Assembly (NCBI GenBank): GCA_022711405.1
Contig: JAKLFC010000002.1
Coordinates: 245,772-309,771, forward strand
DNA length: 64,000 nucleotides
Source of the DNA: Bacteroidota bacterium
GTDB taxonomy: Bacteria > Bacteroidota > Bacteroidia > Bacteroidales > JAGONC01
Direction: 5' to 3'
Below are positions 9,156 through 46,847 of the stretch, piece after piece. Within the stretch, counting starts at the first letter, position 1; the number at the start of each line of letters is the position of its first letter. Both the position numbers and the translations under genes were made by a program. The notes under the pieces are model-generated. The model was not told the DNA's origin. It did no database searches and saw only the letters and a program-made list of their open reading frames with translations.

Positions 9156-9983
9156 TTATTGCGATTTTGTGCTATTATTTCGGATTTGTTTGGAATTTGG
9201 ATCCTGAAATTTGTTTGGAATTTGGTTTTTGGAATTTGGAATTTGATATACCCTGTAACACTGCATAATCGCAAGATAGAAATCATAATCCGGTGCCCAC
9301 AGGATAAAGGGCAGTTCCAGGTCGCAATATTTCATCAGCTGGACGATAACCGCTTCACTTTTTATGCCGGTCAGCCGTGAAACCACGTACGGGTTATAAC
9401 GCTGTACGATCTTCTCCTCCAATGCTTCCCTGGTAAGTACCGCTCTCAGCTTCCGTTGTTCCCTGGGACTCTTTCCAAAGATCTGGTATAAAATACCGGC
9501 AGGACCGGGCATACCTGGAGTGACCTCGAACAGCCAGGCAAGGTCATCCTTGATATACAGCCTCGTCAAGGCGTCGACGGCATATTCCGGAAGGTCCAGG
9601 ACCAGCTCGGTCTCTTTGAAATGATCCCACGTCACCGGTGGAGGTGAGATGGTCACCTCGCTCAGCAAAAGCGTATCGGCAGTGAGGATCACCTTCAGCC
9701 AGTACCGCTCTGCTACCAGAGTGTCGGGAATCCGGATACGAGAGGTCTTGTACGAGACAGCAGAAAAGAGCAGGATGTCACCCGGGACCACCGATATCCT
9801 GAATTTCCCGTACACATCGCTGGCACAACCCTCGTTTCGTTCCGGCACCAGGACGTTGACGAAAGGAACCGGTACGTACAAGGTGTCCCTGACCTCCCCT
9901 TCGATCAGGATACGGCGGGGCACCTGCGCAGGCAGTAATCCAGGCAATGCCAGCAAGAACAAAAAAACCACCCTCCAGACCAT
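9156..9983 (-). CDS. Carboxypeptidase-regulatory-like domain protein (secreted)
   Basis: Signal peptide MVWRVVFLFLLALPGLLPAQ, then IEGEVRD...PFVNVLV...GCASDVYGKFRI, typical of the CarboxypepD_reg fold. The last ~25 codons (QIPNSKNQIPNKFQDPNSKQI) are encoded by a repeat element also found intergenically at 60831-60886. Confidence 0.55.
   Translation of the reverse strand: MVWRVVFLFLLALPGLLPAQVPRRILIEGEVRDTLYVPVPFVNVLVPERNEGCASDVYGKFRISVVPGDILLFSAVSYKTSRIRIPDTLVAERYWLKVILTADTLLLSEVTISPPPVTWDHFKETELVLDLPEYAVDALTRLYIKDDLAWLFEVTPGMPGPAGILYQIFGKSPREQRKLRAVLTREALEEKIVQRYNPYVVSRLTGIKSEAVIVQLMKYCDLELPFILWAPDYDFYLAIMQCYRVYQIPNSKNQIPNKFQDPNSKQIRNNSTKSQ
9191..9246. repeat. Copy A of the GGAATTTGG-rich repeat (inside the 3' end of CDS 9156-9983)
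   Basis: By eye, tggaatttggatcctgaaatttgtttggaatttggtttttggaatttggaatttga aligns to 60831-60886 with only about seven substitutions and no gaps. Confidence 0.7.
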
Positions 9984-33835: not shown

Positions 33836-35122
33836 ATGGAAGAAAAGTTTTCGAGCAAAGGGTACCTCAATATGGAGCTGCTGCGTTTCACCACTGCAGG
33901 CAGCGTGGATGACGGCAAAAGCACACTGATCGGAAGACTTCTCTACGATAGCAAATCCATCTTCGAAGACCAGCTGGAAGCTGTGAAAAGGGCCAGCATC
34001 CGCAGGGGAAATGAACGGGTTGACCTGGCCCTGCTGACCGACGGACTGAGGGCTGAGCGTGAACAGGGTATCACGATTGACGTAGCCTACCGTTACTTTG
34101 CCACACCAAAACGCAAGTTCATCATCGCCGATACACCGGGCCATGTCCAGTATACCCGTAACATGGTGACCGGTGCCTCCACCGCCAACGCAGCCATCAT
34201 CCTCATCGATGCACGTAATGGCGTCACGGAACAAACCTGCCGACACTCCTACATCGCCTCCCTGCTCGAGATCAAACACCTGATCATCTGCATCAACAAG
34301 ATGGACCTGGTGGAATTCAGCCAGGAGGTCTATGAAAGAATCAAAAATGAATTCATTGTCTTTTCAAGGAAACTGGATGCCCGCGATATACACTTTGTAC
34401 CCATCAGCGCACTGCTGGGTGACAACGTGGTGGAACCCTCGTCCAATATGGGATGGTACAGGGGAGGTACATTGATGCATATCCTCGAAACCATCGATAT
34501 CATGAGCGATTGCAACCTGGACGACCCCCGCTTTCCGGTCCAGTATGTCATCAGACCTCAGTCGGCAGATTATCCCGATTATCGGGGATATGCAGGCAGA
34601 ATTGACGGAGGAGTCTTCAGAAAGGGAGACGAGATCGTGGTCATGCCGCAGCAGAAATCAACAGTGATCGAGTCGATAGACTTCTTCCACCAGAGTCTCG
34701 AACAGGCATTTCCGCCAATGTCGGTGACCATCCGTATCAAAGATGATATCGACATCAGCCGGGGCGACATGTTTGTCAAAAAAGACAACATGCCTTCTGT
34801 CACACGGGATATCACCGCCATGGTTTGCTGGATGAGCGATCGGCCTTTGCAACTCAATGGAAAATATGCCCTGAAACATACTACGAAAGACGTGCGCTGC
34901 GTGATCAGGGACGTTCTGTATAAAGTGAATGTCAATAACCTTCATCAGAACAAGGAAGACAGGAACGTAACCCTGAATGAGATTGCCTGCGTCTCCCTTC
35001 GGACCACACAGCCCCTTCTGACCGATCCTTACAAGAGGAACAGGAAAACCGGTTCCCTGATCCTGATCGATGAGGGTACCAATAATACGGTGGGTGTGGG
35101 AATGGTGATTTCCTCACAGTAA
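33836..35122 (+). CDS. cysN: Sulfate adenylyltransferase subunit 1 (GTPase)
   Basis: G1 GSVDDGKSTL, G3 DTPGH, G4 NKMD. 428 aa, with no fused APS kinase domain. Confidence 0.9.
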   Translation: MEEKFSSKGYLNMELLRFTTAGSVDDGKSTLIGRLLYDSKSIFEDQLEAVKRASIRRGNERVDLALLTDGLRAEREQGITIDVAYRYFATPKRKFIIADTPGHVQYTRNMVTGASTANAAIILIDARNGVTEQTCRHSYIASLLEIKHLIICINKMDLVEFSQEVYERIKNEFIVFSRKLDARDIHFVPISALLGDNVVEPSSNMGWYRGGTLMHILETIDIMSDCNLDDPRFPVQYVIRPQSADYPDYRGYAGRIDGGVFRKGDEIVVMPQQKSTVIESIDFFHQSLEQAFPPMSVTIRIKDDIDISRGDMFVKKDNMPSVTRDITAMVCWMSDRPLQLNGKYALKHTTKDVRCVIRDVLYKVNVNNLHQNKEDRNVTLNEIACVSLRTTQPLLTDPYKRNRKTGSLILIDEGTNNTVGVGMVISSQ

Positions 35123-36961: not shown

Positions 36962-37903
36962 ATGAATAACAGTTATTCATTCGGGGAATCCGATCCCGGA
37001 TCTTCCGGAAACAGAAACAGATCATGGATTTATCTTGTCGCCATTCTGTTGCTGGCCGTAGTGTGCGGAATTTATATTGCCAAATTCATCAGGTCGAACA
37101 AAGAGGTTCAAACCCTCACCACCGAGAAAGAAAGCCTGAAAACGGAACTACAGGGTGAACTGGATTCACTGCTGATCGAACATGAAAAGATCAAACAGGA
37201 ATATGGAGAATTGAGCGATGTTCTGGTGGTGAAAGACAGCATCATTCAGGCTAATGCAATGGAAATCAAACAACTACTTGATACCCAATGGGAGTATTAT
37301 AAGGTGAAGAAGAAATTGGACAACCTCCGCGACGTTTCACAGAGCTACCTGAAACAGATCGATTCGTTATTTACTGTCAACAGGGCTCTGAAGGAAGAAA
37401 ACCTTGCGATACGGCAACATTTTGAGGCAGAACAGAAAAAAACGGAGATCCTTCAGAAAGACAAAGAGGAGCTGACCCAAAAAATCACGGAAGCAGCGGT
37501 GCTGAGGGCGTATAACATCAGTGCCGTGGGGGTGCGCTTCAAAAGTGCTGAAGAAGAAAAAGTAACCGATAAGGCCCGCAGGGTTGATAAAATCAAGGTC
37601 TGTTTCACGCTGGCTGCCAATCAGTTGATCACTCCGGGGCAAAAGGATGTATATATCCGGATCGCCCGCCCCGACAACATGATCCTGACCAAGGGAAAAG
37701 GTGAGGAGTTTTCCTTTACCTTCATGGGCGCCACACTGCAGTACTCGATCCTGCAAACGGTGGATTATAACCTGGAAGCCGTTGAGAGCTGCACCTACTG
37801 GATCCACCGCGACAGCTATGAGCCCCTTATTGAGGGAACCTATGTCGTATCCATCTACGCGGAAGATAAAGAGATCGGCCAGACCTCCTTCGTGCTGATG
37901 TGA
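36962..37903 (+). CDS. Membrane-anchored coiled-coil protein, function unknown
   Basis: TM helix WIYLVAILLLAVVCGIYIA, then ~170 aa of heptad-like E/K/Q/L-rich sequence and a beta-rich C-terminal domain. TATATTTG box at 36916-36923. Confidence 0.5.
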   Translation: MNNSYSFGESDPGSSGNRNRSWIYLVAILLLAVVCGIYIAKFIRSNKEVQTLTTEKESLKTELQGELDSLLIEHEKIKQEYGELSDVLVVKDSIIQANAMEIKQLLDTQWEYYKVKKKLDNLRDVSQSYLKQIDSLFTVNRALKEENLAIRQHFEAEQKKTEILQKDKEELTQKITEAAVLRAYNISAVGVRFKSAEEEKVTDKARRVDKIKVCFTLAANQLITPGQKDVYIRIARPDNMILTKGKGEEFSFTFMGATLQYSILQTVDYNLEAVESCTYWIHRDSYEPLIEGTYVVSIYAEDKEIGQTSFVLM

Positions 37904-38516
37904 TTCTTCTCCTGTCAGAGAGGATTGTTTTTTGGGAAAATGACTTTCCCGTGGCGATGTATTCTGCCCAGATGACCCAGAGAATAAAAAAGACCAGATA
38001 AAAGATACCCTTTGCCAGGTATCCATGAAAAAATGGCCAGAGTCGGGGCAGGTAAACGATGACCAGCGACAGGCCTGCGATGCGAAGCAGGTTGGCGAGA
38101 TGCACGGCCACCCATCCCAGGGGGATGAACCAGGTTTTCTTCAGCCAGGGGCCGGGATAGAATATCATTAAAAGGGTAAACTGGGTAAACTGCCTGATCC
38201 CCGAACAGGGATGACTGATGCTCAGTGAGCCCGGCGAACCCAGACAGATACGCTGCCCATCGTAACATGCCTCCATCCTGCAGATCCGGGTCAGGATCCA
38301 TTCGCTGCCATGATACAATCCCTGAACCATCCATGCCGACCAGCCGTTCATCAGACGGGTGACAGGAAAAAAATGCAGGGGTTTTTCCCAGATCCACCAG
38401 AAAAGGTAAATGCCTGCCATCAGCAGAAAAAACCTGCTCAGGTTGTAAGGAAACAAGTCCGCATCCCCGGTGTCTCCGGAAAATACCCAGCGCCTTGAAA
38501 AAAAACGCTGCATCAT
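37827..38516 (-). CDS. Short exosortase/archaeosortase-family membrane protein (subfamily unassigned)
   Basis: Polytopic. Ordered motifs ISHPCSGIR (Cys113 in ORF numbering, codon at 38205-38207), VHLANLLRIAGL (N-x-x-R-I), FFHGYL, then FFILWVIW. This layout matches the exosortase core. ATG at 38516 overlaps the upstream stop as ATGA. Confidence 0.65.
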   Translation of the reverse strand: MMQRFFSRRWVFSGDTGDADLFPYNLSRFFLLMAGIYLFWWIWEKPLHFFPVTRLMNGWSAWMVQGLYHGSEWILTRICRMEACYDGQRICLGSPGSLSISHPCSGIRQFTQFTLLMIFYPGPWLKKTWFIPLGWVAVHLANLLRIAGLSLVIVYLPRLWPFFHGYLAKGIFYLVFFILWVIWAEYIATGKSFSQKTILSDRRRITSARRRSGRSLYLPRRWIRHRFPQ

Positions 38517-38752
38517 TGATCCTTCTTTTTTCCTGACAGCCATTTTTTGATTCCATACCCGATGCCGAACAAAAAGAAAAAGAACAATCCACTCCCCAGG
38601 GGAACGCCTCCCGATAATGGGTCGCCACCAACCAGCGTACTGTCACCATTCACCCCGGGTGCAGGCTGTGCCATGAGTACTCCATGACACAAATATCCCG
38701 ATGCGATGACCACAACCAGCAGGGTCATCCATGAAATTCTTGCTCGCTTCAT
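38513..38752 (-). CDS. 79-aa secreted mini-protein with PEP-CTERM-like C-terminal sorting-signal architecture
   Basis: N-terminal signal peptide MKRARISWMTLLVVVIASGYLCHGVLMA|QP, a Gly/Pro-rich 21-aa middle, then VPLGSG + LFFFFLFGIGYGI (TM) + KKWLSGKKKDQ. Starts 11 nt after the stop of the upstream LTD gene. Confidence 0.55.
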   Translation of the reverse strand: MKRARISWMTLLVVVIASGYLCHGVLMAQPAPGVNGDSTLVGGDPLSGGVPLGSGLFFFFLFGIGYGIKKWLSGKKKDQ

Positions 38753-38763
38753 GCCAATGAATA

Positions 38764-41700
38764 TTAAGGAATAAATACTTTTTGAGAGATAACACCCGAT
38801 GAGGATAGCACCCTGACGATATACCAGCCTTTGGATTCAGGCACGGTAACGACCGTCAGTCCCGCATGTGTGACACTTTCCCGTCGGACCAGACGTCCGG
38901 TCATGTCATGAACGAATAACTCTCCTTCCCTGAAAGAGGAAGGGATCATCAGATGAAGATGATTGCCCGACCGGCACAGCACCAAATGCTCAGAAGTAAT
39001 TTCTTCATGCCCTGAGACGACTGTAAAATGAACAAGAAACCGTTCCGGATCATCACCCGGAGCATAGGAAAAGCTATAGTCTGTATGATCCCGGCAGTCG
39101 ATCAGCACATCTTCCTTCAGGTCTTCCAGTAGAATGTCCATGCCTGCAGGGAAAGTCTCCATACCTGTAAAAGCCAGCACGTACATCCCTGAAAGATATG
39201 CAGTAAAGCCTATCATCACGTGCTCGGTATCTGTAACGGAAGGGAAGGCATTCACCGACAGTATGCTGCCGTCGTCTGCAAAAGAGTAGACCTGGGGCAC
39301 GCCATCATTCCCGAAGAGTTTATGAGCATCATACTCCAGATCAAAACCACTGGTGGAACCCTCCCTGAAACAAAGGGTCGTCTGATCGGTCCCATCTTCG
39401 CCCGAAACGTTGATCCTGAAGAGAGGAAAGGATGATGCGACGGGCAGATAATGGTTCGAAACCTCATGGAGGCGGGCCGCATTGGTGAATGTGACGGATC
39501 CGGTTTGCCCGGGTGCGTCCACGCGGATGAAAAATCCCTGCATGGCCGGTACGATGGAATCTGTTGTCTCCGGATTGTTCCCGACACCGTTGATATAAGA
39601 TGAATATCCTTCCCGTTCGGGATTCCAGAAATAGATCGCGTTCTGGATATGATCCCTCAGGATTGCAGGATGCTCCCAGTTTATGGCTGAAGGAAACGGA
39701 TTCCCGATAAGCTGATATCCTGCATAATCAGGCTGATAGGACGGCAGGCCAGGACCGGTATAGGATAATCCGCCTGCCTGCTGAACACCTGAATTAAATT
39801 CTCCGCTGAAATCCACCATGGTGCTGCCTCCTTCCAGCCAGACCGAATAACCCTTGACGGGTGACAATGGGCTGCTGAATGTGAGGTTCTCCCAAAGCTG
39901 GAGAGGTTCATTATACTGACGGACAAAGGCGCTGCCGGGGAAGACATCGCCTGCCTGTGCCTGTGTGACTGGCGGGGAAATAAAATGATACACTGCACCT
40001 TCCGGATCGCGGGATATGCCACCGCTTAAAAATACCTCCATGATGGAAGTCCCGCTGACTTCCACGGCTGCCAGGTCATCTTCCAGCAGCAACGAAGAGG
40101 TAAGGGATGTATCTGCCTGCAGCCACAGTGATCCACCGACCCGCAGGGTATCTCCCTGTGCTACGGTCACCATGGCCCCCGGAGCCAGACTGAGATCCTG
40201 GCAGAAAAAGGGATGATCTATGATCAGCAGTGCATTCACGCTGGCCGGTACGGTGACCTGTGTTCCGGCACCTGCTGACTGGCCTGCAAGCCAGTTGGAT
40301 GGCACCGCCCAGTTATGCTCCTGTTCTGTGCAGCCTCCTGCCCAGGTTGCAGCAACAGGGGCCAGGCTGTTTGCCTGACCGGGGGTGCCACCGTTCATAT
40401 GACTGGCTTTCCAGTTACCGGAAAAACTGTTGTCTGCATTCTGTCCGATCAGCTCCAGTGATGGTCCATATCCGTCGGGAGCCCTGTTGCCCCAGGCTGG
40501 ATCGTCACTGTAGGTTACCAAATCGATCAGCTGGCCGGCAGCATTCTGCAGCTCGATCGTTTCACCGGAATTGCTCAGCGTTCCGCTCTGCCACTCGTAC
40601 ACCCTGGAATCCAGGTCCTGGTACATCCCTGAGGAATACGCGACAACTACGAATTCACCCGGGCCCAGCGTGGCTGTATCCGGAAAAGTGAAGGTAACTC
40701 CCTGCGTAAAGGTATACCCCCCAAGAGCAGTTTCAGGGGATCCCGCATTGACCAGTTCGATGAACTCAGAAGTATCCGTTCCAGTTTCGGGACCATTGTA
40801 ATGGATCTCATGAATGACAATGCGAGCCAGGGGCAGGACATTGAAAGGACTGCTGGTATCCGCTTCCAGCATGGTTCCCGTTAATACCAGTGCAGCAAGG
40901 GTAATGTTGTTCCCGGAAGTGTCATACCGAATCCCGGTGATCACGACTGAACTCCCGCCTGCAAAAAGGGTGTCCTGTAAATTGCCGTACAACTGACCTG
41001 TGCCGGTAGCCACCGATAGCCCTATGACAGTGTTCTCCCCCACAGGACAGATATTCCCCGACGAATCCACTGTCTGTATGCTCACATAAAAGGGCGCATC
41101 CACAAAGGGATCTATGCCGCCATTGACGGAAAGGATCTGGAGCCCTGCAGGCTGAACTTCTTCACCAACTACCGTGAAGCCACCGGTTGACAACACCTGG
41201 CGCTGTGTGTCGGATCCCGTCCAGCTCAGATAATTATTCACCGCCTCCTGGAGTTCTTCCTGCGACCCGTTGATGAGGCTCCGGTTATAGACCAAGTTAT
41301 CAGTCTCTGCCAGGGCTACGCAGGATACTCCGTTCACCAGGCCGGCAGGAAGGGCGGATGTACTGGCATCTGTTGCATCTTCCTGCCAGATATGCTCACC
41401 CTCGTCGTTGATGGCCGCCACAAACAGGGGGGTCTCCTCCGTTCCCTGATACACCAAGATCTGATCCCCGCTGGAGGAGAGGGCCATGCCGGATATGGTG
41501 ACGACCACCTCTGCGCCTGCAGGATGATCGGCAGTCGCTATCCAGATATCGGTCCCTTCCCCTGTCCTGAATGTGCCGGATGCCTTCCACCCGTTATCAG
41601 TCAACCGGATCTCCGTTCCGGCTTCAATGGCCACTAAAAAAGCCAGGGAAACTTCATCGGGATTATCCATATTGAATCCGGTGATAACCAGATCCCCGGG

Positions 41701-41790
41701 CAGTAAGACAGTTTGGGCATGGCTGGGTGTTAAAAAAAAGAGGATTGCCAGTAGTGGCAATCCTGAATATAAAGAAATGTACTGTTTCAT
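38764..41790 (-). CDS. Lamin tail domain (LTD)-containing T9SS cargo protein (~1008 aa)
   Basis: Signal peptide from the ATG at 41790 (MKQYISLYSGLPLLAILFFLTPSHAQ). LTD signature IVIHEIHYNGPETGTDTSEFIELVNAGS...SNSGETIELQNAAGQLIDLVTY (about 40366-40827). C-terminal LFVHDMTGRLV...GWYIVRVLSSSGVISQKVFI resembles a T9SS type A tail. Confidence 0.75.
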   Translation of the reverse strand: MKQYISLYSGLPLLAILFFLTPSHAQTVLLPGDLVITGFNMDNPDEVSLAFLVAIEAGTEIRLTDNGWKASGTFRTGEGTDIWIATADHPAGAEVVVTISGMALSSSGDQILVYQGTEETPLFVAAINDEGEHIWQEDATDASTSALPAGLVNGVSCVALAETDNLVYNRSLINGSQEELQEAVNNYLSWTGSDTQRQVLSTGGFTVVGEEVQPAGLQILSVNGGIDPFVDAPFYVSIQTVDSSGNICPVGENTVIGLSVATGTGQLYGNLQDTLFAGGSSVVITGIRYDTSGNNITLAALVLTGTMLEADTSSPFNVLPLARIVIHEIHYNGPETGTDTSEFIELVNAGSPETALGGYTFTQGVTFTFPDTATLGPGEFVVVAYSSGMYQDLDSRVYEWQSGTLSNSGETIELQNAAGQLIDLVTYSDDPAWGNRAPDGYGPSLELIGQNADNSFSGNWKASHMNGGTPGQANSLAPVAATWAGGCTEQEHNWAVPSNWLAGQSAGAGTQVTVPASVNALLIIDHPFFCQDLSLAPGAMVTVAQGDTLRVGGSLWLQADTSLTSSLLLEDDLAAVEVSGTSIMEVFLSGGISRDPEGAVYHFISPPVTQAQAGDVFPGSAFVRQYNEPLQLWENLTFSSPLSPVKGYSVWLEGGSTMVDFSGEFNSGVQQAGGLSYTGPGLPSYQPDYAGYQLIGNPFPSAINWEHPAILRDHIQNAIYFWNPEREGYSSYINGVGNNPETTDSIVPAMQGFFIRVDAPGQTGSVTFTNAARLHEVSNHYLPVASSFPLFRINVSGEDGTDQTTLCFREGSTSGFDLEYDAHKLFGNDGVPQVYSFADDGSILSVNAFPSVTDTEHVMIGFTAYLSGMYVLAFTGMETFPAGMDILLEDLKEDVLIDCRDHTDYSFSYAPGDDPERFLVHFTVVSGHEEITSEHLVLCRSGNHLHLMIPSSFREGELFVHDMTGRLVRRESVTHAGLTVVTVPESKGWYIVRVLSSSGVISQKVFIP

Positions 41791-41976
41791 AACTGGGTTG
41801 CATTTTGGGTTCAACACTGTTCCATTTCATAGGTTAATCCCCCGGGTACCCAAAATGTGACCCTGTTTTTTAAAAAAAATTTTTATATTTTTTTAATTTT
41901 TCTTAATTGATTGATTTACAACTATATGATTTTTTTAATCTGTCTCAAAATTGACAAACGGCAGGAAGTGCGGGGA

Positions 41977-42609
41977 TTATTTTCTTCCAAAATCGGCAGG
42001 TATCTCTCCCCAGGCAGCTGTATTCCATTTGAGGACCGTACTGGAATAATCGTTTTCCTTCAGCCATATCAAGGCCCGGTCAATAAGTTCGAAAAGTCTG
42101 TGGGTATTACTGGTCCTTTCCAGTTTGGTCTTAACTGCTTTCTCTTTCACCCACTTAATGGCGGTCCTGGAGTCACTGTACAATGGACATGATTTTCCCT
42201 GTGTTTTTAAAAAGGCGAGCCCATGAACAATGCCAAGGAACTCCCCCAGATTGACAGTCCCTTCCGGAAACGGGCCACCCCTGAACACTTCCTGCCCTGT
42301 TTCCGTCCACACACCCCTGTACTCCAGTATTCCCGGATTGCCCTTGCAGGCAGCATCCACCGAGAGACTTCCCAAAATGGGAAGGGAAACGGAGGAAGAT
42401 GAGGTCAGTGAAAGAGCCGACTGGATGGAATCTTTACCAATATAGTCCCTGTGATCCCCTGAAAAGGCCCTTTCGGCCGCTTCCCTTGTGGGAAAGGACT
42501 TGTAAACCGCTCCCTCGATCCCTTTAACCTGTTCTTCACATTCACTCCAGCTGGAAAAAACACCTGGCTTTTTACCCTTCCAAACGACGTAATATCTTGA
42601 TTTTGGCAT
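41977..42609 (-). CDS. rnhA: Ribonuclease H1 with N-terminal hybrid-binding domain
   Basis: YYVVWKGKKPGVFSSWSECEEQVKGIEGAVYKSFPTREAAERAF (RNase H1 N-terminal/viroplasmin-type domain), then the RNase H core (SVDAAC..., LEYRG, YSDSRTAI). Start at the internal ATG at 42609. Confidence 0.8.
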   Translation of the reverse strand: MPKSRYYVVWKGKKPGVFSSWSECEEQVKGIEGAVYKSFPTREAAERAFSGDHRDYIGKDSIQSALSLTSSSSVSLPILGSLSVDAACKGNPGILEYRGVWTETGQEVFRGGPFPEGTVNLGEFLGIVHGLAFLKTQGKSCPLYSDSRTAIKWVKEKAVKTKLERTSNTHRLFELIDRALIWLKENDYSSTVLKWNTAAWGEIPADFGRK

Positions 42610-42640
42610 GATCCTCCCATTCCTGTACAAAACTAATAAG

Positions 42641-44243: not shown

Positions 44244-46847
44244 ATGAAAAAAATATTCCTTTTTATCTTCCTGGCCGTAGCATTCTTTGCTAAAGCCCAG
44301 CTGGCAGACGATTTTGCAGATGGTAATTTTACGGCTGATCCCTCCTGGAGCGGCGACTCTGAACGATTCCGGATCAATGCGGATCATCAGTTGCAGTTGT
44401 TTGACAGCGGATCGGGCACAGCTATGCTGGCGACTGCCAGCTACCTGTTTGACAGCACCGAATGGCAGTTCCATATCCGGCTGGGATTCAGCCCTTCCTC
44501 CAACAATTTCGCCAGAATCTACCTTGCTTCCGATCAGGCAGACCTGACCGGAATGCTCAACGGATTCTTCCTGCAGTTCGGAGAACAGGGAACCAGCGAT
44601 GCTCCTGAGCTTTTCCGCCAGGAAGGCCTGACCACTTACCCAATATGCCGCGGAACCGACGGAAGCATAGCGCAGGCCTTCGCCCTGAACATCAGGGTGA
44701 CCCATCTGAGCGACGGATCATGGAATATATTTTCAGCTCCCGGCGACTCCCATGCATTTCAATTCCTGGCATCAGGATCAGATGCCACCCTGATCAGCCC
44801 CGCTCATGCAGGTGTTCTCTGCACCTACACCAGCTCCAACAGTCAGAAATTCTATTTTGACGACTTCCTGATACAGCCCGTACTGAAGGATACCGTGCCT
44901 CCGGCAATTGAACAGTTGTACCCTGTTTCTTCCACCCGGCTGCACCTCAGGTTCACTGAAACTGTGAATGGTCAGGATGCCACGCATACCGGTCATTATT
45001 CGCTTGCATCCAGCGGGCAGATACCGGATTCAGCCACCCTTGATCCCAATGATCCCAACCGTGTGGTCCTCGGCTTTACAACTCCCTTTATCATCGGCTC
45101 TTTTGAAGACCTCCTTATTTCAGGCATTCACGACATGGCCGGAAACCTGCTCAGAGACACAGTTGTACCCTTTGTCTGGTATATTCCGCAAGTTTTTGAC
45201 ATCCTGATCAGTGAGATCATGGCTGACCCGGATCCTTCCTCCGGTTTGCCTCCGGTAGAATATATTGAGCTGTTTAATGCATGTGATTTTCCGGTACGGT
45301 TAAAGGACTGGCGCCTTACCATCTCAGGAAGTCCCAGAATATTTCCGGAAACAGGAATAGCAGCAAAAAGCTACCTGCTCGTTACAAAAGAGGCCGGTCT
45401 CAGCGAATTTGGCGCCTGCGCTTTGTTGCTGACCTCATCGTATTCGCTGAGCAACGAAGGAACGGCCATTGCCCTCTTCAACGCCGCCGGGCAGCTGATC
45501 CACTCGGTCACTTATGCCGCGGATTGGTACGACGAGGAATGGAAAAAGGATGGGGGATGGTCGCTGGAGCTCGTTGACCCGATGAATCCCTGTACGGAAG
45601 AGGGTAACTGGGAAGCCAGCACGGATCCGTCTGGAGGGACCCCCGGAAGAGTCAATTCCTGTCTCATGGAGAACAGGGATACGATCCCTCCCCGGCTGGC
45701 CGGTATTGGAATAGAAGCAAAGGATTGGATCCGGATCTGGTTTTCGGAAAAAATGGATAGCACCACCCTGCTGGATCCAGGATTGTACAATCTTGAACCC
45801 CACGAGGGCCACGCGACCATAGTATTACCGGCAGGCGACTTTTATCATTCGGTGCTCGTCCGGCTGCCTTTTCCCCTGGAGGAAGCTGCATCCTATCAAC
45901 TGTCGCTGACCGGAGGCGTCACTGATTGCGCAGGGAACGAAATGGATGCCGGCGCACGGCTGCCTGCAGGCCTTCCTGCCATTGCCGACAACATGGATAT
46001 AGTGATCAATGAAATTCTGCTGGATCCTTCAGATCCGGGAGCAGCGTTCATTGAGCTCTATAACAGGACCGACCGCTTCTTTGACATAAAGGACCTGGTC
46101 CTGGCACGGATGGATACGGTCCGTCTTGTGTTGACGTCCGTACAGGCCATCTCTGATGAAAGTTACCTGTTGGCTCCGGGACGTTACATGGTTCTCTCCC
46201 CGGATCCATTTGCTGTCATCCGGCACTATCACTGCCCTGATCCTGATGCTTTTGTCAAAATGAGCGGATGGCCTGTGTTCAGCAGGGAGGCGTCTGTCAT
46301 CGTACTTGCCTGCAGGCATGATGAGAAGGTGATCGATCAGGTATATTACCGCGAATCCCTTCACTTCGACCTGGTCAGCAATCCGGAAGGAGTCTCACTG
46401 GAACGCATTCATTTTAGCAGGCCATCCGGGGATGATACCAACTGGCACTCTGCCTCACAGTCGTCCGGTTATGCCACGCCGGGGTACCAGAACTCACAGT
46501 TCACAGGCGATATCGTCCAGCCGGATGACTGGCTGACCGTGGAACCGGAGCTCTTCACTCCCGACAATGATGGCATGGATGATCTGCTGGCTGTCTGCTG
46601 TTCTGAGCATGAACCGGGATGGGTTGCCAGCATCCAGGTGTTTGACGCAGCAGGGAGACTGGTCAACTACCTGGTTGATAATGCATTAATGGGTATGAAT
46701 AATATCTTCACATGGGATGGAAAGGACCAGGATGGGAATTTTCTGCCAACCGGCATTTATATCATTTTCGCTCAGATCTTTGACCTGTACGGGAATGCAA
46801 AAACAGGCAAACGTGCCTGCGTCCTTGTCCGTCAGGATCTTCGCTGA
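44244..46847 (+). CDS. Double lamin-tail-domain protein with T9SS type B-like C-terminal domain
   Basis: Signal peptide MKKIFLFIFLAVAFFAKAQ. LTD1 ILISEIMADPD...EYIELFN (about 45195-45659). LTD2 IVINEILLDPSDPGAAFIELYN (about 45996-46493). C-terminus FTPDNDGMDD...IQVFDAAGRLV...WDGKDQDGNFLPTGIYII resembles the gliding-motility-associated (type B) CTD. Confidence 0.75.
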   Translation: MKKIFLFIFLAVAFFAKAQLADDFADGNFTADPSWSGDSERFRINADHQLQLFDSGSGTAMLATASYLFDSTEWQFHIRLGFSPSSNNFARIYLASDQADLTGMLNGFFLQFGEQGTSDAPELFRQEGLTTYPICRGTDGSIAQAFALNIRVTHLSDGSWNIFSAPGDSHAFQFLASGSDATLISPAHAGVLCTYTSSNSQKFYFDDFLIQPVLKDTVPPAIEQLYPVSSTRLHLRFTETVNGQDATHTGHYSLASSGQIPDSATLDPNDPNRVVLGFTTPFIIGSFEDLLISGIHDMAGNLLRDTVVPFVWYIPQVFDILISEIMADPDPSSGLPPVEYIELFNACDFPVRLKDWRLTISGSPRIFPETGIAAKSYLLVTKEAGLSEFGACALLLTSSYSLSNEGTAIALFNAAGQLIHSVTYAADWYDEEWKKDGGWSLELVDPMNPCTEEGNWEASTDPSGGTPGRVNSCLMENRDTIPPRLAGIGIEAKDWIRIWFSEKMDSTTLLDPGLYNLEPHEGHATIVLPAGDFYHSVLVRLPFPLEEAASYQLSLTGGVTDCAGNEMDAGARLPAGLPAIADNMDIVINEILLDPSDPGAAFIELYNRTDRFFDIKDLVLARMDTVRLVLTSVQAISDESYLLAPGRYMVLSPDPFAVIRHYHCPDPDAFVKMSGWPVFSREASVIVLACRHDEKVIDQVYYRESLHFDLVSNPEGVSLERIHFSRPSGDDTNWHSASQSSGYATPGYQNSQFTGDIVQPDDWLTVEPELFTPDNDGMDDLLAVCCSEHEPGWVASIQVFDAAGRLVNYLVDNALMGMNNIFTWDGKDQDGNFLPTGIYIIFAQIFDLYGNAKTGKRACVLVRQDLR

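What the first reader, a model, noticed from the sequence alone, without database searches (positions are those of the whole stretch)
37827..41790. Candidate undescribed protein-sorting module: LTD/T9SS giant protein, then a 79-aa mini-substrate with a PEP-CTERM-like tail, then a short exosortase-family enzyme
Three same-strand genes are packed as one apparent transcription unit.
- There is an 11-nt gap between the LTD gene stop (38764) and the mini-protein ATG (38752).
- An ATGA stop/start overlap links the mini-protein to the exosortase-like gene (38513-38516).

Exosortase systems are best known from Proteobacteria and Cyanobacteria, where they occur with PEP-CTERM cargo inside EPS and glycosyltransferase loci. 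Bacteroidota exosortase relatives generally lack a defined cognate signal. Here a short exosortase-like enzyme sits directly behind a tiny ORF. That ORF's only features are a signal peptide and a motif / TM / basic-cluster tail, which is the tripartite layout expected of a dedicated substrate. No glycosyltransferase or polysaccharide genes are nearby. The upstream partner instead uses a different export route (a T9SS C-terminal domain).

After signal-peptide removal and tail cleavage, the released or transferred product would be only about 21 residues (QPAPGVNGDSTLVGGDPLSGG). This suggests a peptide tag or anchor rather than a conventional surface protein.
Basis: partly seen in the sequence, partly recalled or inferred. 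Interest (0 to 1): 0.85.

Follow-up and report, generated by a model that had tools for sequence, protein, structure and literature searches.

The report
Divergent exosortase with dedicated mini-substrate
A short membrane sorting enzyme (exosortase) is encoded right behind its probable single substrate, a 79-residue mini-protein that always follows a large secreted adhesin gene; it is a divergent branch of a database-curated but unpublished system (XrtX/PID-CTERM), and could make the unknown chemistry of Bacteroidota exosortases directly testable.

Summary
Three same-strand genes sit at the stated coordinates, with an 11-nt gap and an ATGA overlap.

- **Enzyme.** The 229-aa protein is an exosortase-family enzyme with the conserved Cys104/Arg145/His164.
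- **Mini-protein.** The 79-aa ORF is a real gene. Its core is nearly invariant in 18 orthologues although synonymous sites are saturated. It has a signal peptide, a 21-residue mature peptide, and a motif/TM/Lys tail.
- **"Undescribed" is only partly right.** The best curated matches are exosortase X (94.5 bits, cut-off 170) and its cognate PID-CTERM signal (18.4 bits, cut-off 26). Both are sub-threshold.
- **Same layout in a genuine XrtX locus.** L106 carries XrtX, a T9SS giant, then a 75-aa bona fide PID-CTERM mini-protein. An intermediate clade (L104/L105) has the same giant, mini, exosortase order.
- **The conserved partner is not the LTD domain.** It is a RemA-family C-terminal module plus a type A T9SS domain. 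Every held locus with that module intact is followed by a mini-protein.
- **Sister clade.** Sister-clade exosortases sit beside VimE/VimA-like deacetylase and FemAB genes. This lineage has none in 64 kb.

Verdict: a new variant of the XrtX/PID-CTERM-type dedicated sorting system, coupled to a T9SS adhesin. Processing, the acceptor and the adhesin link are inferred, not shown.

The parts
38764..41790 (-). Giant surface protein, 1008 aa from the ATG at 41790 (the ORF runs up to a GTG at 41817). It has a Sec signal peptide ending SHA|QT and variable head domains that include a lamin-tail domain. A RemA-family C-terminal module and a T9SS type A C-terminal domain follow.
   Evidence: ORF and sequence. 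LTD PF00932 scores 71.1 bits against cut-off 34.3. T9SS type A TIGR04183 scores 25 bits against cut-off 23. Orthologues are 1007-1008 aa.
40507..40827 (-). Lamin-tail domain (residues 331-437 of the 1017-aa ORF). It is specific to this lineage and is not the conserved partner of the mini-protein.
   Evidence: Giants in L018, L027, L104 and L106 lack LTD.
39037..40446 (-). RemA-family pre-CTD module of about 470 aa. It is shared by every giant that precedes a mini-protein.
   Evidence: Profile A7 against PDB sequences hits chain 8gl6_D ('RemA', residues 888-1435) at E 2.4e-37 and Mfa5 at E 3.3e-7. Pairwise identity among giants is 21-31%, E 1e-10 to 1e-41. With the CTD removed, the module hits only mini-linked giants in all held loci.
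38770..38922 (-). T9SS type A C-terminal sorting domain of the giant.
   Evidence: TIGR04183 residues 966-1016, 25 bits against cut-off 23. The Pfam Por_Secre_tail hit is only 13.1 bits against 27.
38753..38763 (-). 11-nt spacer between the giant's stop codon and the mini-protein's start codon. It is too short for an independent promoter.
   Evidence: The gap is also 11 nt in L027, 4 nt in L105, 42 nt in L106 and 52 nt in L018.
38513..38752 (-). 79-aa mini-protein gene (GenBank HOW24143.1, annotated 'hypothetical protein'). It is the probable dedicated exosortase substrate.
38669..38752 (-). Signal peptide, residues 1-28 (MKRARISWMTLLVVVIASGYLCHGVLMA). The predicted SPase I site is A28|Q29.
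   Evidence: The hydrophobic segment spans residues 4-27. A-Q-P is invariant in 18 orthologues while the preceding residues vary. This fits the Bacteroidetes Q-rule (PMC5837995).
38606..38668 (-). Mature peptide, residues 29-49 (QPAPGVNGDSTLVGGDPLSGG). It is nearly invariant across the lineage and contains D37-S38-T39, a match to the Bacteroidota O-glycosylation sequon.
   Evidence: The motif (D)(S/T)(A/I/L/V/M/T) is given in PMC8550257.
38516..38605 (-). PID-CTERM-like sorting tail, residues 50-79. It has the motif V-P-L-G-S-G, a hydrophobic helix (LFFFFLFGIGYGI) and a basic end (KKWLSGKKKDQ).
   Evidence: NF046080 PID_CTERM scores 18.4 bits (cut-off 26) on residues 50-70. It is the only NCBIfam hit for all 18 orthologues. 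Hydropathy. Alignment with the genuine PID-CTERM mini of L106.
37827..38516 (-). Short exosortase, 229 aa (GenBank HOW24144.1, annotated 'exosortase/archaeosortase family protein'). It is XrtX-like but scores below the XrtX cut-off. The last 25 or so residues are a lineage-specific extension.
   Evidence: TIGR04178 53.1 bits against cut-off 23. NF046081 XrtX 94.5 bits against 170. Alignments A1, A3 and A6. AF2 model mean pLDDT 85.6, helical bundle.
38205..38207 (-). Codon of Cys104, the predicted catalytic nucleophile, in the motif P-C-S-G.
   Evidence: Invariant in the 80-sequence alignment A6. Coordinates. Cys/Arg/His triad: Haft 2023, doi 10.1101/2023.06.07.544157.
38082..38084 (-). Codon of Arg145, in the motif N142-L-L-R145.
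   Evidence: N142 is invariant and R145 is conserved in at least 90% of A6. R145 is invariant in A1 and A3.
38025..38027 (-). Codon of His164.
   Evidence: Invariant in A1, A3 and A6.

Best explanation
This is a divergent branch of the XrtX/PID-CTERM type of exosortase system, organised as a dedicated enzyme-substrate pair and genetically coupled to a RemA-family T9SS adhesin.

Proposed working:
1. The giant adhesin gene and the mini-protein gene, and probably the exosortase gene, are transcribed together.
2. The 79-aa mini-protein is exported by Sec. Signal peptidase I cuts after Ala28, exposing Gln29. By the Bacteroidetes Q-rule this Gln may cyclise to pyroglutamate.
3. The peptide stays tethered in the inner membrane by its C-terminal helix, with the Lys-rich end in the cytoplasm.
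4. The polytopic exosortase (Cys104/Arg145/His164) recognises the V-P-L-G-S-G motif at the periplasmic face of that helix and cuts there. By analogy with sortase-like enzymes, it transfers the remaining peptide of about 21-27 residues (QPAPGVNGDSTLVGGDPLSGG...) to an acceptor, either a lipid or an amino-sugar glycolipid. The D-S-T sequon may be O-glycosylated.
5. The product is a tiny anchored (glyco)peptide that works together with the co-encoded adhesin at the cell surface.

Shown here:
- family membership of the enzyme;
- reality and strong constraint of the mini gene;
- the tripartite tail;
- recurrence of the giant, mini and exosortase association in four other locus types, spanning at least two further exosortase clades, one of them genuine XrtX.

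Inferred: cleavage, the cleavage site, transfer, the acceptor, glycosylation, and any physical link to the adhesin.
For: **Enzyme**
- TIGR04178 signature scores 53.1 bits, above its cut-off of 23. The best subfamily is XrtX at E 6.6e-27.
- Cys, Arg and His are conserved across 80 homologues.
- The AF2 model is confident, with mean pLDDT 85.6.

**Mini-protein**
- There are 17 homologues, all 71-80 aa.
- The core is nearly invariant although synonymous sites are saturated.
- PID_CTERM is the only family hit for all 18 sequences.

**Linkage**
- Mini and enzyme are adjacent in all loci of the lineage. Housekeeping proteins there have diverged to 72-87% identity and the enzyme to 49-67%.
- L104/L105 (enzyme XrtX score 130 bits) has giant, then 4 nt, a 76-aa mini, then 12 nt, then the exosortase.
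- L106 has genuine XrtX (191 bits), a protein resembling the XrtX-associated membrane protein, a T9SS giant, and a 75-aa mini scoring 41.7 bits against the PID-CTERM cut-off of 26.
- In L018 and L027 the giant-then-mini pair lies 4.3-4.4 kb from the exosortase in two further gene orders.
- The RemA-family module occurs only in mini-linked giants in the held loci.

**Concept**
- Dedicated one-to-one sorting systems with adjacent genes, and the Cys/Arg/His triad, are described by Haft 2023.

**Window scan**
- No other ORF in the 64-kb window has such a tail.
Against: - Neither the enzyme (94.5 bits against 170) nor the tail (18.4 bits against 26) reaches the curated cut-offs. The signature residue Asp of P-I-D is replaced (P-L-G).
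- No homologue of the XrtX-associated membrane protein was found in the window (tblastn only).
- Only 64 kb of the genome could be scanned, so other substrates may exist and 'dedicated' is not proven.
- In the sister clade, only 2 of 23 loci with at least 6 kb of upstream sequence have the cassette nearby. One genuine XrtX locus (L102) has none within 7 kb.
- All window-lineage loci share wider synteny, so they count as one evolutionary observation.
- No transcript, proteomic or biochemical data exist. No exosortase has a solved structure.
Confidence: 0.7

Rival explanations
1. The mini-protein is one of many substrates. The exosortase serves several P-[LI]-G-S-G-tailed proteins scattered in the genome, as classical PEP-CTERM systems do. 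Its adjacency to the mini gene is inherited synteny rather than a one-to-one relationship.
For: - Most exosortase systems are one-to-many (Haft 2006, PMC1569441; Haft 2023).
- Sister-clade enzymes sit in polysaccharide-type loci with no mini nearby.
- Only 64 kb of this genome was visible.
Against: - Word-based search with the mini-protein returned only 71-80-aa orthologues and no larger protein sharing the tail.
- No other tail-bearing ORF exists in the window or in about 100 related loci.
- The mini gene is retained next to or near the enzyme in five different gene orders.
Confidence: 0.15
2. The mini-protein is not cleaved. It is a small bitopic membrane protein (periplasmic peptide, one helix, cytoplasmic Lys tail) that serves as an accessory subunit or tether for the T9SS adhesin or for the exosortase. 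This would resemble the small partner proteins of XrtF and XrtX.
For: - Exosortase F and X systems have dedicated small membrane partners (Fjoh_1449 in PMC10936215; NF046082).
- T9SS substrates are often paired with a cognate downstream partner gene, as in SprB/SprF-type pairs (PMC12618676).
- The helix and its flanks are as conserved as the motif.
Against: - The tail has the motif/helix/basic layout and C-terminal position of a sorting signal. Its only family match is a curated sorting domain.
- It shows no similarity to NF046082.
- The known partner proteins are multi-helix proteins of about 150 aa, not 50-residue single-helix peptides.
Confidence: 0.1
3. The exosortase acts only as a maturation protease. 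It releases the invariant 21-residue peptide as a diffusible signal or effector rather than anchoring it.
For: - Near-invariance of a 21-residue sequence suggests recognition by a specific partner.
- Whether exosortases are transpeptidases is unresolved (Haft 2023).
Against: - The mature parts of the minis in other clades differ completely in sequence and keep only a Gly/Pro-rich composition.
- The constant pairing with a surface adhesin points to a cell-surface role.
- Experimental work on relatives (ArtA, PEP-CTERM PepA) supports anchoring.
Confidence: 0.05

Closest known systems
Exosortase X (XrtX, NCBIfam NF046081), the PID-CTERM sorting domain (NF046080; Pfam PF28310) and the XrtX-associated membrane protein (NF046082)
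   Same: - These are the best curated hits for both the enzyme and the tail.
- The enzyme is short, about 170-200 aa.
- The tail has the same layout: Pro-aliphatic-x-Gly-Gly, a Gly-rich helix, then Lys-Lys.
- In the genuine locus L106 a 75-aa PID-CTERM mini-protein follows a T9SS type A giant that carries the same RemA-family module, close to XrtX.
- The signal peptide likewise ends A|Q-P.
   Different: - The enzyme scores 94.5 bits against a cut-off of 170 and is 29-31% identical over long alignments to genuine XrtX (43% over a 92-residue stretch to P0129).
- The tail scores 18.4 bits against 26, and its motif is P-L-G-S-G rather than P-I-D-G-G.
- No XrtX-associated membrane protein is detected.
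- The enzyme gene is fused directly behind the mini gene.
- The mature peptide has no Cys pair, unlike those of L105 and L106, but has an invariant D-S-T.
- No publication describes the XrtX system.
Sister clade of short Bacteroidota exosortases (P0186-like; 473 metagenomic relatives), annotated only as 'exosortase/archaeosortase family protein'
   Same: - These are the closest sequence relatives outside the lineage, at 30-40% identity.
- They show the same sub-threshold XrtX best hit, 69-107 bits.
- Two or three loci (L018, L027, and a fragment in L030) carry a giant-then-mini cassette with an A-P-I-G-S-G tail. The L018 tail scores 25.9 bits against a cut-off of 26.
   Different: - In 33 of 37 loci the enzyme sits beside a FemAB-like gene. 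In 28 of 37 it sits beside a DUF3473 deacetylase (best hits TIGR03019 and TIGR03006, the XrtA-system families).
- The window has neither gene in 64 kb.
XrtA/PEP-CTERM and EpsH systems (Haft 2006, PMC1569441)
   Same: - Same enzyme superfamily.
- Same tripartite signal logic.
- Proposed cleavage at the motif, with conjugation of the new C-terminus to an unidentified compound (PMC7468200).
   Different: - No PEP motif and no PEP-CTERM model hit.
- The enzyme is about half the size.
- There is no EPS locus.
- There appears to be one substrate rather than many.
- The host is Bacteroidota.
Exosortase F (XrtF, Fjoh_1448) and its associated protein in Flavobacterium johnsoniae
   Same: - It is a short Bacteroidota exosortase with no known PEP-CTERM substrate.
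- Its deletion gives the same surface-colonisation and biofilm phenotypes as the T9SS attachment mutants porU and porZ (PMC10936215). This hints at an exosortase-T9SS link.
   Different: - The XrtF model scores only 34.2 bits against a cut-off of 90.
- XrtF has a multi-helix partner protein and no identified mini-substrate.
Dedicated one-to-one sorting pairs (concept in Haft 2023, doi 10.1101/2023.06.07.544157; for example archaeosortase B with VPXXXP-CTERM)
   Same: The enzyme and its single target are encoded by consecutive genes.
   Different: - These are different subfamilies. Archaeosortase B scores 24.5 bits against a cut-off of 150.
- Here the target is almost nothing but the signal itself, and it is tied to a T9SS adhesin.
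T9SS type A cargo attachment (PorU sortase, A-LPS linking sugar made by VimA/VimE/VimF; Veith 2020, PMC7468200)
   Same: - The giant is a type A CTD cargo.
- VimA belongs to the pepcterm_femAB family and VimE is a deacetylase. These are the same two gene families that flank the sister-clade exosortases.
   Different: - No PorU, VimA or VimE gene is in the module.
- Any convergence of the two pathways is inference only.

Membership tests
Exosortase/archaeosortase superfamily | Signature HMM TIGR04178 scores above its curated cut-off | tested here: met
   53.1 bits against cut-off 23, residues 99-183.
Exosortase/archaeosortase superfamily | Pfam PF09721 Exosortase_EpsH scores above its gathering score | tested here: inconclusive
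   The window protein scores 23.8 bits against 25.7, just below. Most orthologues carry precomputed PF09721 hits.
Exosortase/archaeosortase superfamily | Conserved Cys, Arg and His (putative catalytic triad) | tested here: met
   C104 and H164 are invariant and R145 is conserved in at least 90% of 80 homologues. All three are invariant in A1 and A3. Triad as stated in Haft 2023.
Exosortase/archaeosortase superfamily | Polytopic, deeply membrane-embedded protein | tested here: met
   The AF2 model (pLDDT 85.6) consists of long helices. Hydropathy segments.
Exosortase X (XrtX, NF046081) | HMM score at or above the curated cut-off of 170 bits | tested here: not met
   94.5 bits. Genuine members score 178-191 bits. 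Identity to them is 29-31% over long alignments (43% over 92 residues to P0129).
Exosortase X (XrtX, NF046081) | A cognate PID-CTERM protein is present | tested here: inconclusive
   The adjacent mini-protein gives the only hit, but it is sub-threshold at 18.4 bits against 26.
Exosortase X (XrtX, NF046081) | An XrtX-associated membrane protein (NF046082) is present | tested here: not met
   tblastn with the L106 copy finds nothing in the window. NCBIfam scans of the neighbouring genes gave no NF046082 hit. Sensitivity is low and the rest of the genome was not seen.
Exosortase X (XrtX, NF046081) | Gene neighbourhood as in a genuine locus: T9SS giant followed by a mini-protein | tested here: met
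   L106 compared with the window.
PID-CTERM sorting domain (NF046080 / PF28310) | HMM score at or above 26 bits | tested here: not met
   18.4 bits. The best of the 18 orthologues has E 3.1e-4, and all are below cut-off. PF28310 is absent from the local Pfam copy.
PID-CTERM sorting domain (NF046080 / PF28310) | Pro-Ile-Asp signature motif | tested here: not met
   The window has P-L-G. L018 and L027 have P-I-G, L105 has P-I-G, and genuine L106 has P-I-D.
PID-CTERM sorting domain (NF046080 / PF28310) | Tripartite layout (motif, transmembrane helix, basic cluster) at the extreme C-terminus, behind an N-terminal signal peptide | tested here: met
PEP-CTERM / XrtA system | PEP-CTERM model hit, XrtA-type enzyme and an EPS locus | tested here: not met
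   No PEP-CTERM or XrtA hit for either protein. No deacetylase or FemAB gene in 64 kb.
Exosortase F (XrtF, TIGR04128) | HMM score at or above 90 bits | tested here: not met
   34.2 bits.
T9SS type A cargo (giant protein) | C-terminal type A sorting domain | tested here: met
   TIGR04183 scores 25 bits against cut-off 23. The Pfam version is sub-threshold at 13.1 bits. The CTD aligns with RemA, NucA and gingipain CTDs.
RemA-family adhesins (giant protein) | Homology of the C-terminal 550 or so residues to RemA/RemZ | tested here: met
   Profile A7 against 8gl6_D residues 888-1435, E 2.4e-37. Lectin head and gliding function were not tested.

The most novel reading that the evidence does not exclude
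The mini-protein is a genetically encoded anchor, or 'bridge peptide', for T9SS adhesins. The exosortase fixes the C-terminus of the roughly 21-residue peptide to a lipid or amino-sugar glycolipid. The RemA-family adhesin encoded just upstream is then tethered to that peptide conjugate after T9SS export, either covalently through the PorU sortase or through its conserved C-terminal module.

The exosortase and T9SS attachment pathways would then converge. That would explain three observations:
- XrtX-type exosortases recur beside T9SS giants.
- Their sister clade sits beside VimA/VimE-like genes.
- F. johnsoniae xrtF mutants phenocopy porU and porZ mutants.
Probability: 0.12. Interest if true: 0.85.

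Novelty: new variant of a known kind. Interest (0 to 1): 0.55.

Why it matters
What exosortases do chemically is still unknown. Neither where they cut nor what they attach has been established, and for Bacteroidota not even the substrates are established experimentally (PMC10936215).

- **A minimal test case.** This system has one enzyme and one probable substrate. The mature part of that substrate is a 21-residue, nearly invariant peptide that is easy to follow by mass spectrometry.
- **An unpublished genomic link.** The recurrent pairing of these mini-substrates with RemA-family T9SS adhesins ties the exosortase and type IX secretion surface-attachment pathways together. I found this link in no paper.
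- **An annotation gap.** Curated XrtX and PID-CTERM models miss whole related clades. Here the enzyme is annotated only generically and the substrate as 'hypothetical protein'.

Tried and rejected
1. **Attenuator hairpin.** A terminator-like hairpin lies just after the mini stop (38510..38488). It is not conserved in six orthologous junctions, so I dropped it.
2. **Sigma-70 promoter scan.** It found no more sites than in shuffled sequence, and it does not cover Bacteroidota promoters.
3. **Single-sequence AlphaFold of the giant's C-module.** Mean pLDDT was 38 and the model is unusable. Locus-derived alignments are not accepted by that tool.
4. **Foldseek against afdb50.** The library was unavailable. 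Foldseek against PDB and PDB sequence searches with the exosortase found nothing meaningful.
5. **Locus search with the 41-sequence alignment A3.** The genome-contig scan with A1 gave only 5 loci.
6. **Other tail-bearing ORFs.** I looked in the window and in about 100 related loci. None was convincing beyond the minis.
7. **XrtX-associated membrane protein.** None was found in the window or related loci.
8. **Lipoprotein reading of the mini.** The Cys22 in 'YLCHG' is not conserved in orthologues, so I rejected it.
9. **LTD as the conserved partner.** Rejected.
10. **Literature.** No paper mentions PID-CTERM or XrtX. Haft 2012 and the RemA paper are not held.

Full report
**1. Observation**

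- The giant ORF runs 38764..41817 from a GTG. Its likely ATG is at 41790, which gives 1008 aa, the length of the orthologues, and a signal peptide ending SHA|QT.
- Its TAA stop (38764-38766) is followed by 11 nt (TATTCATTGGC) and then the ATG of a 79-aa ORF (38513..38752).
- The TGA of that ORF overlaps the ATG of a 229-aa ORF (37827..38516) as ATGA.

Two qualifications apply.
- An in-frame ATG at 38543 would give 238 aa, and GenBank holds both versions. In orthologues the called start of the enzyme lies from 31 nt inside the mini gene to 88 nt after it. Close adjacency is conserved, but the ATGA overlap is not.
- The window's enzyme carries a non-conserved Arg-rich tail of about 25 aa. This tail overlaps the convergent gene 36962..37903 by 77 nt.

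**2. The enzyme**

- NCBIfam places the 229-aa protein in the exosortase/archaeosortase superfamily (TIGR04178, 53.1 bits against cut-off 23).
- The best subfamily model is exosortase X (NF046081, E 6.6e-27). At 94.5 bits it is far below the curated cut-off of 170. XrtF, XrtG, XrtH, XrtY, XrtM and the archaeosortase B and C models score lower still.
- Pfam Exosortase_EpsH is just sub-threshold, at 23.8 bits against 25.7.
- In an 80-sequence alignment Cys104 (P-C-S-G), Asn142, His164 and Lys127 are invariant, and Arg145 is conserved in at least 90%. Cys, Arg and His form the putative catalytic triad of the family (Haft 2023, doi 10.1101/2023.06.07.544157).
- An AlphaFold model built on that alignment is confident (mean pLDDT 85.6) and consists of long helices.
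- No solved structure resembles it by sequence or fold.

**3. The mini-protein is a real, strongly constrained gene**

- A word-based search of 5.8 billion proteins found 17 homologues. All are 71-80 aa, and all come from Bacteroidales or Lentimicrobiaceae MAGs or unnamed metagenome contigs.
- In the alignment the N-terminal signal peptide varies freely. From Ala28 onwards the sequence A-Q-P-[AD]-P-G-M-N-G-D-S-T-L-V-G-G-G-P-[LI]-S-G-G-V-P-L-G-S-G-L-F-F-F-L-L-F-G-I-G-Y-G-I-R-K-W is almost fixed, with 31 invariant columns.
- Pairwise codon comparison of this core in seven loci gives pS 0.50-0.83 (saturated) against pN 0.015-0.13. The conservation therefore acts at the protein level.
- In the same loci CysN is 72-87% identical, the giant 55-67% and the exosortase 49-67%. 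The mini core is the most conserved element of the neighbourhood.
- The layout is a signal peptide (residues 1-28), a 21-residue mature peptide QPAPGVNGDSTLVGGDPLSGG, then V-P-L-G-S-G, a hydrophobic helix, and K-K-W-L-S-G-K-K-K-D-Q.
- The invariant A|Q junction fits the Bacteroidetes Q-rule for signal peptidase I substrates (PMC5837995).
- The invariant D37-S38-T39 matches the Bacteroidota O-glycosylation motif (D)(S/T)(A/I/L/V/M/T) (PMC8550257). A three-residue match could be chance, so this is a lead only.
- The only family hit is the PID-CTERM sorting domain (NF046080). It scores 18.4 bits against cut-off 26 on residues 50-70. The same holds for all 18 orthologues.

**4. Conservation of the arrangement within the lineage**

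Every locus recovered through the enzyme or through the mini-protein (L001-L006, L008-L014) has the same order. The order is: LTD protein (867 aa), RibF, GldH, RNase H-like (Cauli_VI), giant (about 1007 aa), mini, exosortase, a convergent DUF8429/8428 gene, peptidase C69, CysN/D/C. These loci share broad synteny. They therefore count as one evolutionary observation, although a deep one.

**5. The wider family**

*Breadth of the family.*
- A profile search of 1.84 billion cluster representatives found 1741 relatives at E<1e-3 and 40 at E<1e-30.
- Ten sampled top hits all have XrtX as best model, at 69-99 bits, below cut-off.
- Among the top 149, a separate cluster of proteins of about 168-190 aa (one of 253 aa) holds genuine XrtX: the four members tested (P0103, P0129, P0141, P0143) score 178-191 bits.
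- The window enzyme is 29-31% identical to genuine XrtX over long alignments (43% over a 92-residue stretch to P0129). It is 33-40% identical to its nearest outside relatives P0009, P0186 and P0228 (29% to P0210).

*The sister clade (P0186-like).*
- It is large, with 473 metagenomic stretches. Eighty loci were fetched.
- Among loci with at least 3 kb downstream, 33 of 37 have a FemAB-like gene next to the exosortase and 28 of 37 have a DUF3473 polysaccharide deacetylase.
- The best NCBIfam hits of these neighbours are the XrtA-system families TIGR03019 and TIGR03006, both sub-threshold.
- The window contains neither gene in 64 kb. It marks a departure from the ancestral context.

**6. The same cassette elsewhere**

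Four other locus types carry a large T9SS protein followed by a mini-protein of the same design.

| Locus | Enzyme | Giant | Gap | Mini | Tail motif | Position relative to exosortase |
|---|---|---|---|---|---|---|
| L018 | P0186, 35% identical | 937 aa, choice-of-anchor J, type A CTD | 52 nt | 77 aa | A-P-I-G-S-G + helix + KK (PID-CTERM 25.9 bits, cut-off 26) | 4.3 kb away, divergent |
| L027 | P0186-like | 717 aa, type A CTD | 11 nt | 77 aa | A-P-I-G-S-G | 4.4 kb away, different intervening genes |
| L104/L105 | P0094, XrtX 130 bits | 1068/1222 aa, ice-binding + PKD | 4 nt | 76 aa | T-P-I-G-G-G + helix + KK | mini then 12 nt then exosortase, the window's order |
| L106 | genuine XrtX, 191 bits | 1403 aa, PKD, type A CTD | 42 nt | 75 aa | V-P-I-D-G-G (PID-CTERM 41.7 bits, cut-off 26; precomputed Pfam PF28310) | same strand, XrtX then a 155-aa protein (best hit NF046082, the XrtX-associated membrane protein; 42 bits, below cut-off 75) then giant then mini |

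- Aligned together, the minis share a signal peptide usually ending A|Q, a short Gly/Pro-rich mature part, P-[IL]-x-G/S-G, a Gly-rich helix, and Lys-Lys.
- One other genuine XrtX locus (L102: SecG, XrtX, Wzy_C-like) has no such gene within 7 kb.
- Only 2 of 23 sister-clade loci with at least 6 kb upstream have the cassette. Proximity is therefore frequent but not universal.

**7. The giant**

- LTD is not the conserved element. The heads differ between clades.
- The giants share a module of about 470 aa before the CTD, at 21-31% identity and E 1e-10 to 1e-41.
- A profile of this region matches PDB chain 8gl6_D residues 888-1435 at E 2.4e-37, and Mfa5 at 3.3e-7. The chain is deposited as 'RemA'. 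[quoted passage not shown]
- With the CTD removed, the module hits only the mini-linked giants in the window and the 106 held loci. Wherever the giant's 3' end is on the contig, a mini follows.
- These loci were collected through the exosortase. This shows co-occurrence within that sample, not genome-wide.

**8. Mechanism**

The best-supported reading is a dedicated exosortase/substrate pair of the XrtX/PID-CTERM type.
1. Sec export of the mini-protein.
2. Cleavage at A28|Q29.
3. Retention in the inner membrane by the C-terminal helix.
4. Recognition of V-P-L-G-S-G by the exosortase, followed by cleavage.
5. By analogy with ArtA and the proposed PEP-CTERM pathway, transfer of the peptide to an acceptor.

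Shown: family membership, gene reality, tail layout and repeated linkage. Inferred: every biochemical step.

The link to the adhesin is genomic only. Three observations make a functional connection to T9SS surface attachment plausible.
- VimA and VimE make the amino-acid-bearing linking sugar to which PorU attaches T9SS cargo. They belong to the same two families that flank the sister-clade exosortases (PMC7468200).
- F. johnsoniae xrtF and its partner gene give the same surface-colonisation phenotypes as porU and porZ (PMC10936215).
- T9SS substrates are often paired with a cognate downstream partner gene (PMC12618676).

**9. Comparison and novelty**

- The system works like, and is laid out like, the XrtX/PID-CTERM system. 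That system is curated in NCBIfam and Pfam, but I found no paper on it.
- Strict membership fails. The enzyme and tail are both below cut-off, the signature Asp is replaced, and no XrtX-associated membrane protein was detected.
- I file it as a new variant of a known kind. GenBank annotates the two genes as 'exosortase/archaeosortase family protein' and 'hypothetical protein'.
- Interest is moderate. The general concept of dedicated sorting pairs is known. The near-minimal substrate and the recurrent coupling to RemA-family T9SS adhesins are not described in any paper I could find. They offer a direct experimental handle on exosortase chemistry in Bacteroidota.

**10. Limits**

- Only 64 kb of the genome was visible.
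- The loci for the wider clades are few and were found through the enzyme.
- The curators' own descriptions of NF046080-82 and PF28310 could not be read. They may already note the mini-protein/T9SS association.
- There are no expression or protein data.

Noticed in passing
window 37827-37903: The exosortase ORF has an Arg-rich C-terminal extension of about 25 aa. It is absent from all relatives outside its own 90% cluster. The extension makes a 77-nt overlap with the convergent DUF8429/DUF8428 gene (36962..37903). It looks like a recent loss or shift of the stop codon.
   Followed up: partly
window 38513-38752: The window's mini-protein has V34, D44, F60 and K69 where the 17 orthologues have M, G, L and R at otherwise (nearly) invariant positions.
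   Followed up: no
window 38606-38668: An invariant D-S-T in the mature peptide matches the Bacteroidota O-glycosylation sequon. The minis of L105 and L106 instead carry a Cys pair (CWPPDPDC, CWPKPC), and those of L018 and L027 carry neither.
   Followed up: partly
window 41977-42630 (-): The RNase H-like (Cauli_VI) gene lies upstream of the giant. In sister-clade loci L018, L030, L059, L066, L077 and L089 it lies 0.2-2.4 kb upstream of the exosortase. The giant-plus-mini cassette therefore looks inserted between the two in the window lineage.
   Followed up: partly
window 44244-46847 (+): A second LTD protein (867 aa) lies nearby. Orthologues show weak CHU_C (type B T9SS CTD) hits. It lacks the RemA-family module.
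   Followed up: partly
window 33836-35122 and orthologous loci: CysN, followed in relatives by CysD-like PAPS_reduct and APS kinase genes, lies 3-10 kb from the module in every orthologous locus. These genes activate sulfate. No link to the module has been established.
   Followed up: no
L023 1408-2130, L026 1763-2503, L051 10427-11155 and others: Sister-clade loci carry a conserved membrane protein of about 240 aa ending ...Y(N/K)VI(V/I)K, between the exosortase and the deacetylase. L051 also has a second exosortase fragment at 9525-9734 (-).
   Followed up: no
L102 1214-3126: In this genuine XrtX locus the enzyme is followed, with a 4-nt overlap, by a 455-aa Wzy_C (O-antigen ligase/polymerase-like) protein. 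No mini-protein lies within 7 kb.
   Followed up: partly
window 38488-38510 (-): A terminator-like hairpin lies just after the mini-protein stop, inside the 5' end of the exosortase ORF. It is not conserved in six orthologous junctions.
   Followed up: yes
tool libraries: Pfam PF28310 (PID_CTERM) appears in the precomputed annotation of L106 but is missing from the local Pfam copy. A Pfam scan therefore cannot test membership. PDB chain 8gl6_D is labelled RemA, but the paper calls it RemZ (Fjoh_0803).
   Followed up: yes
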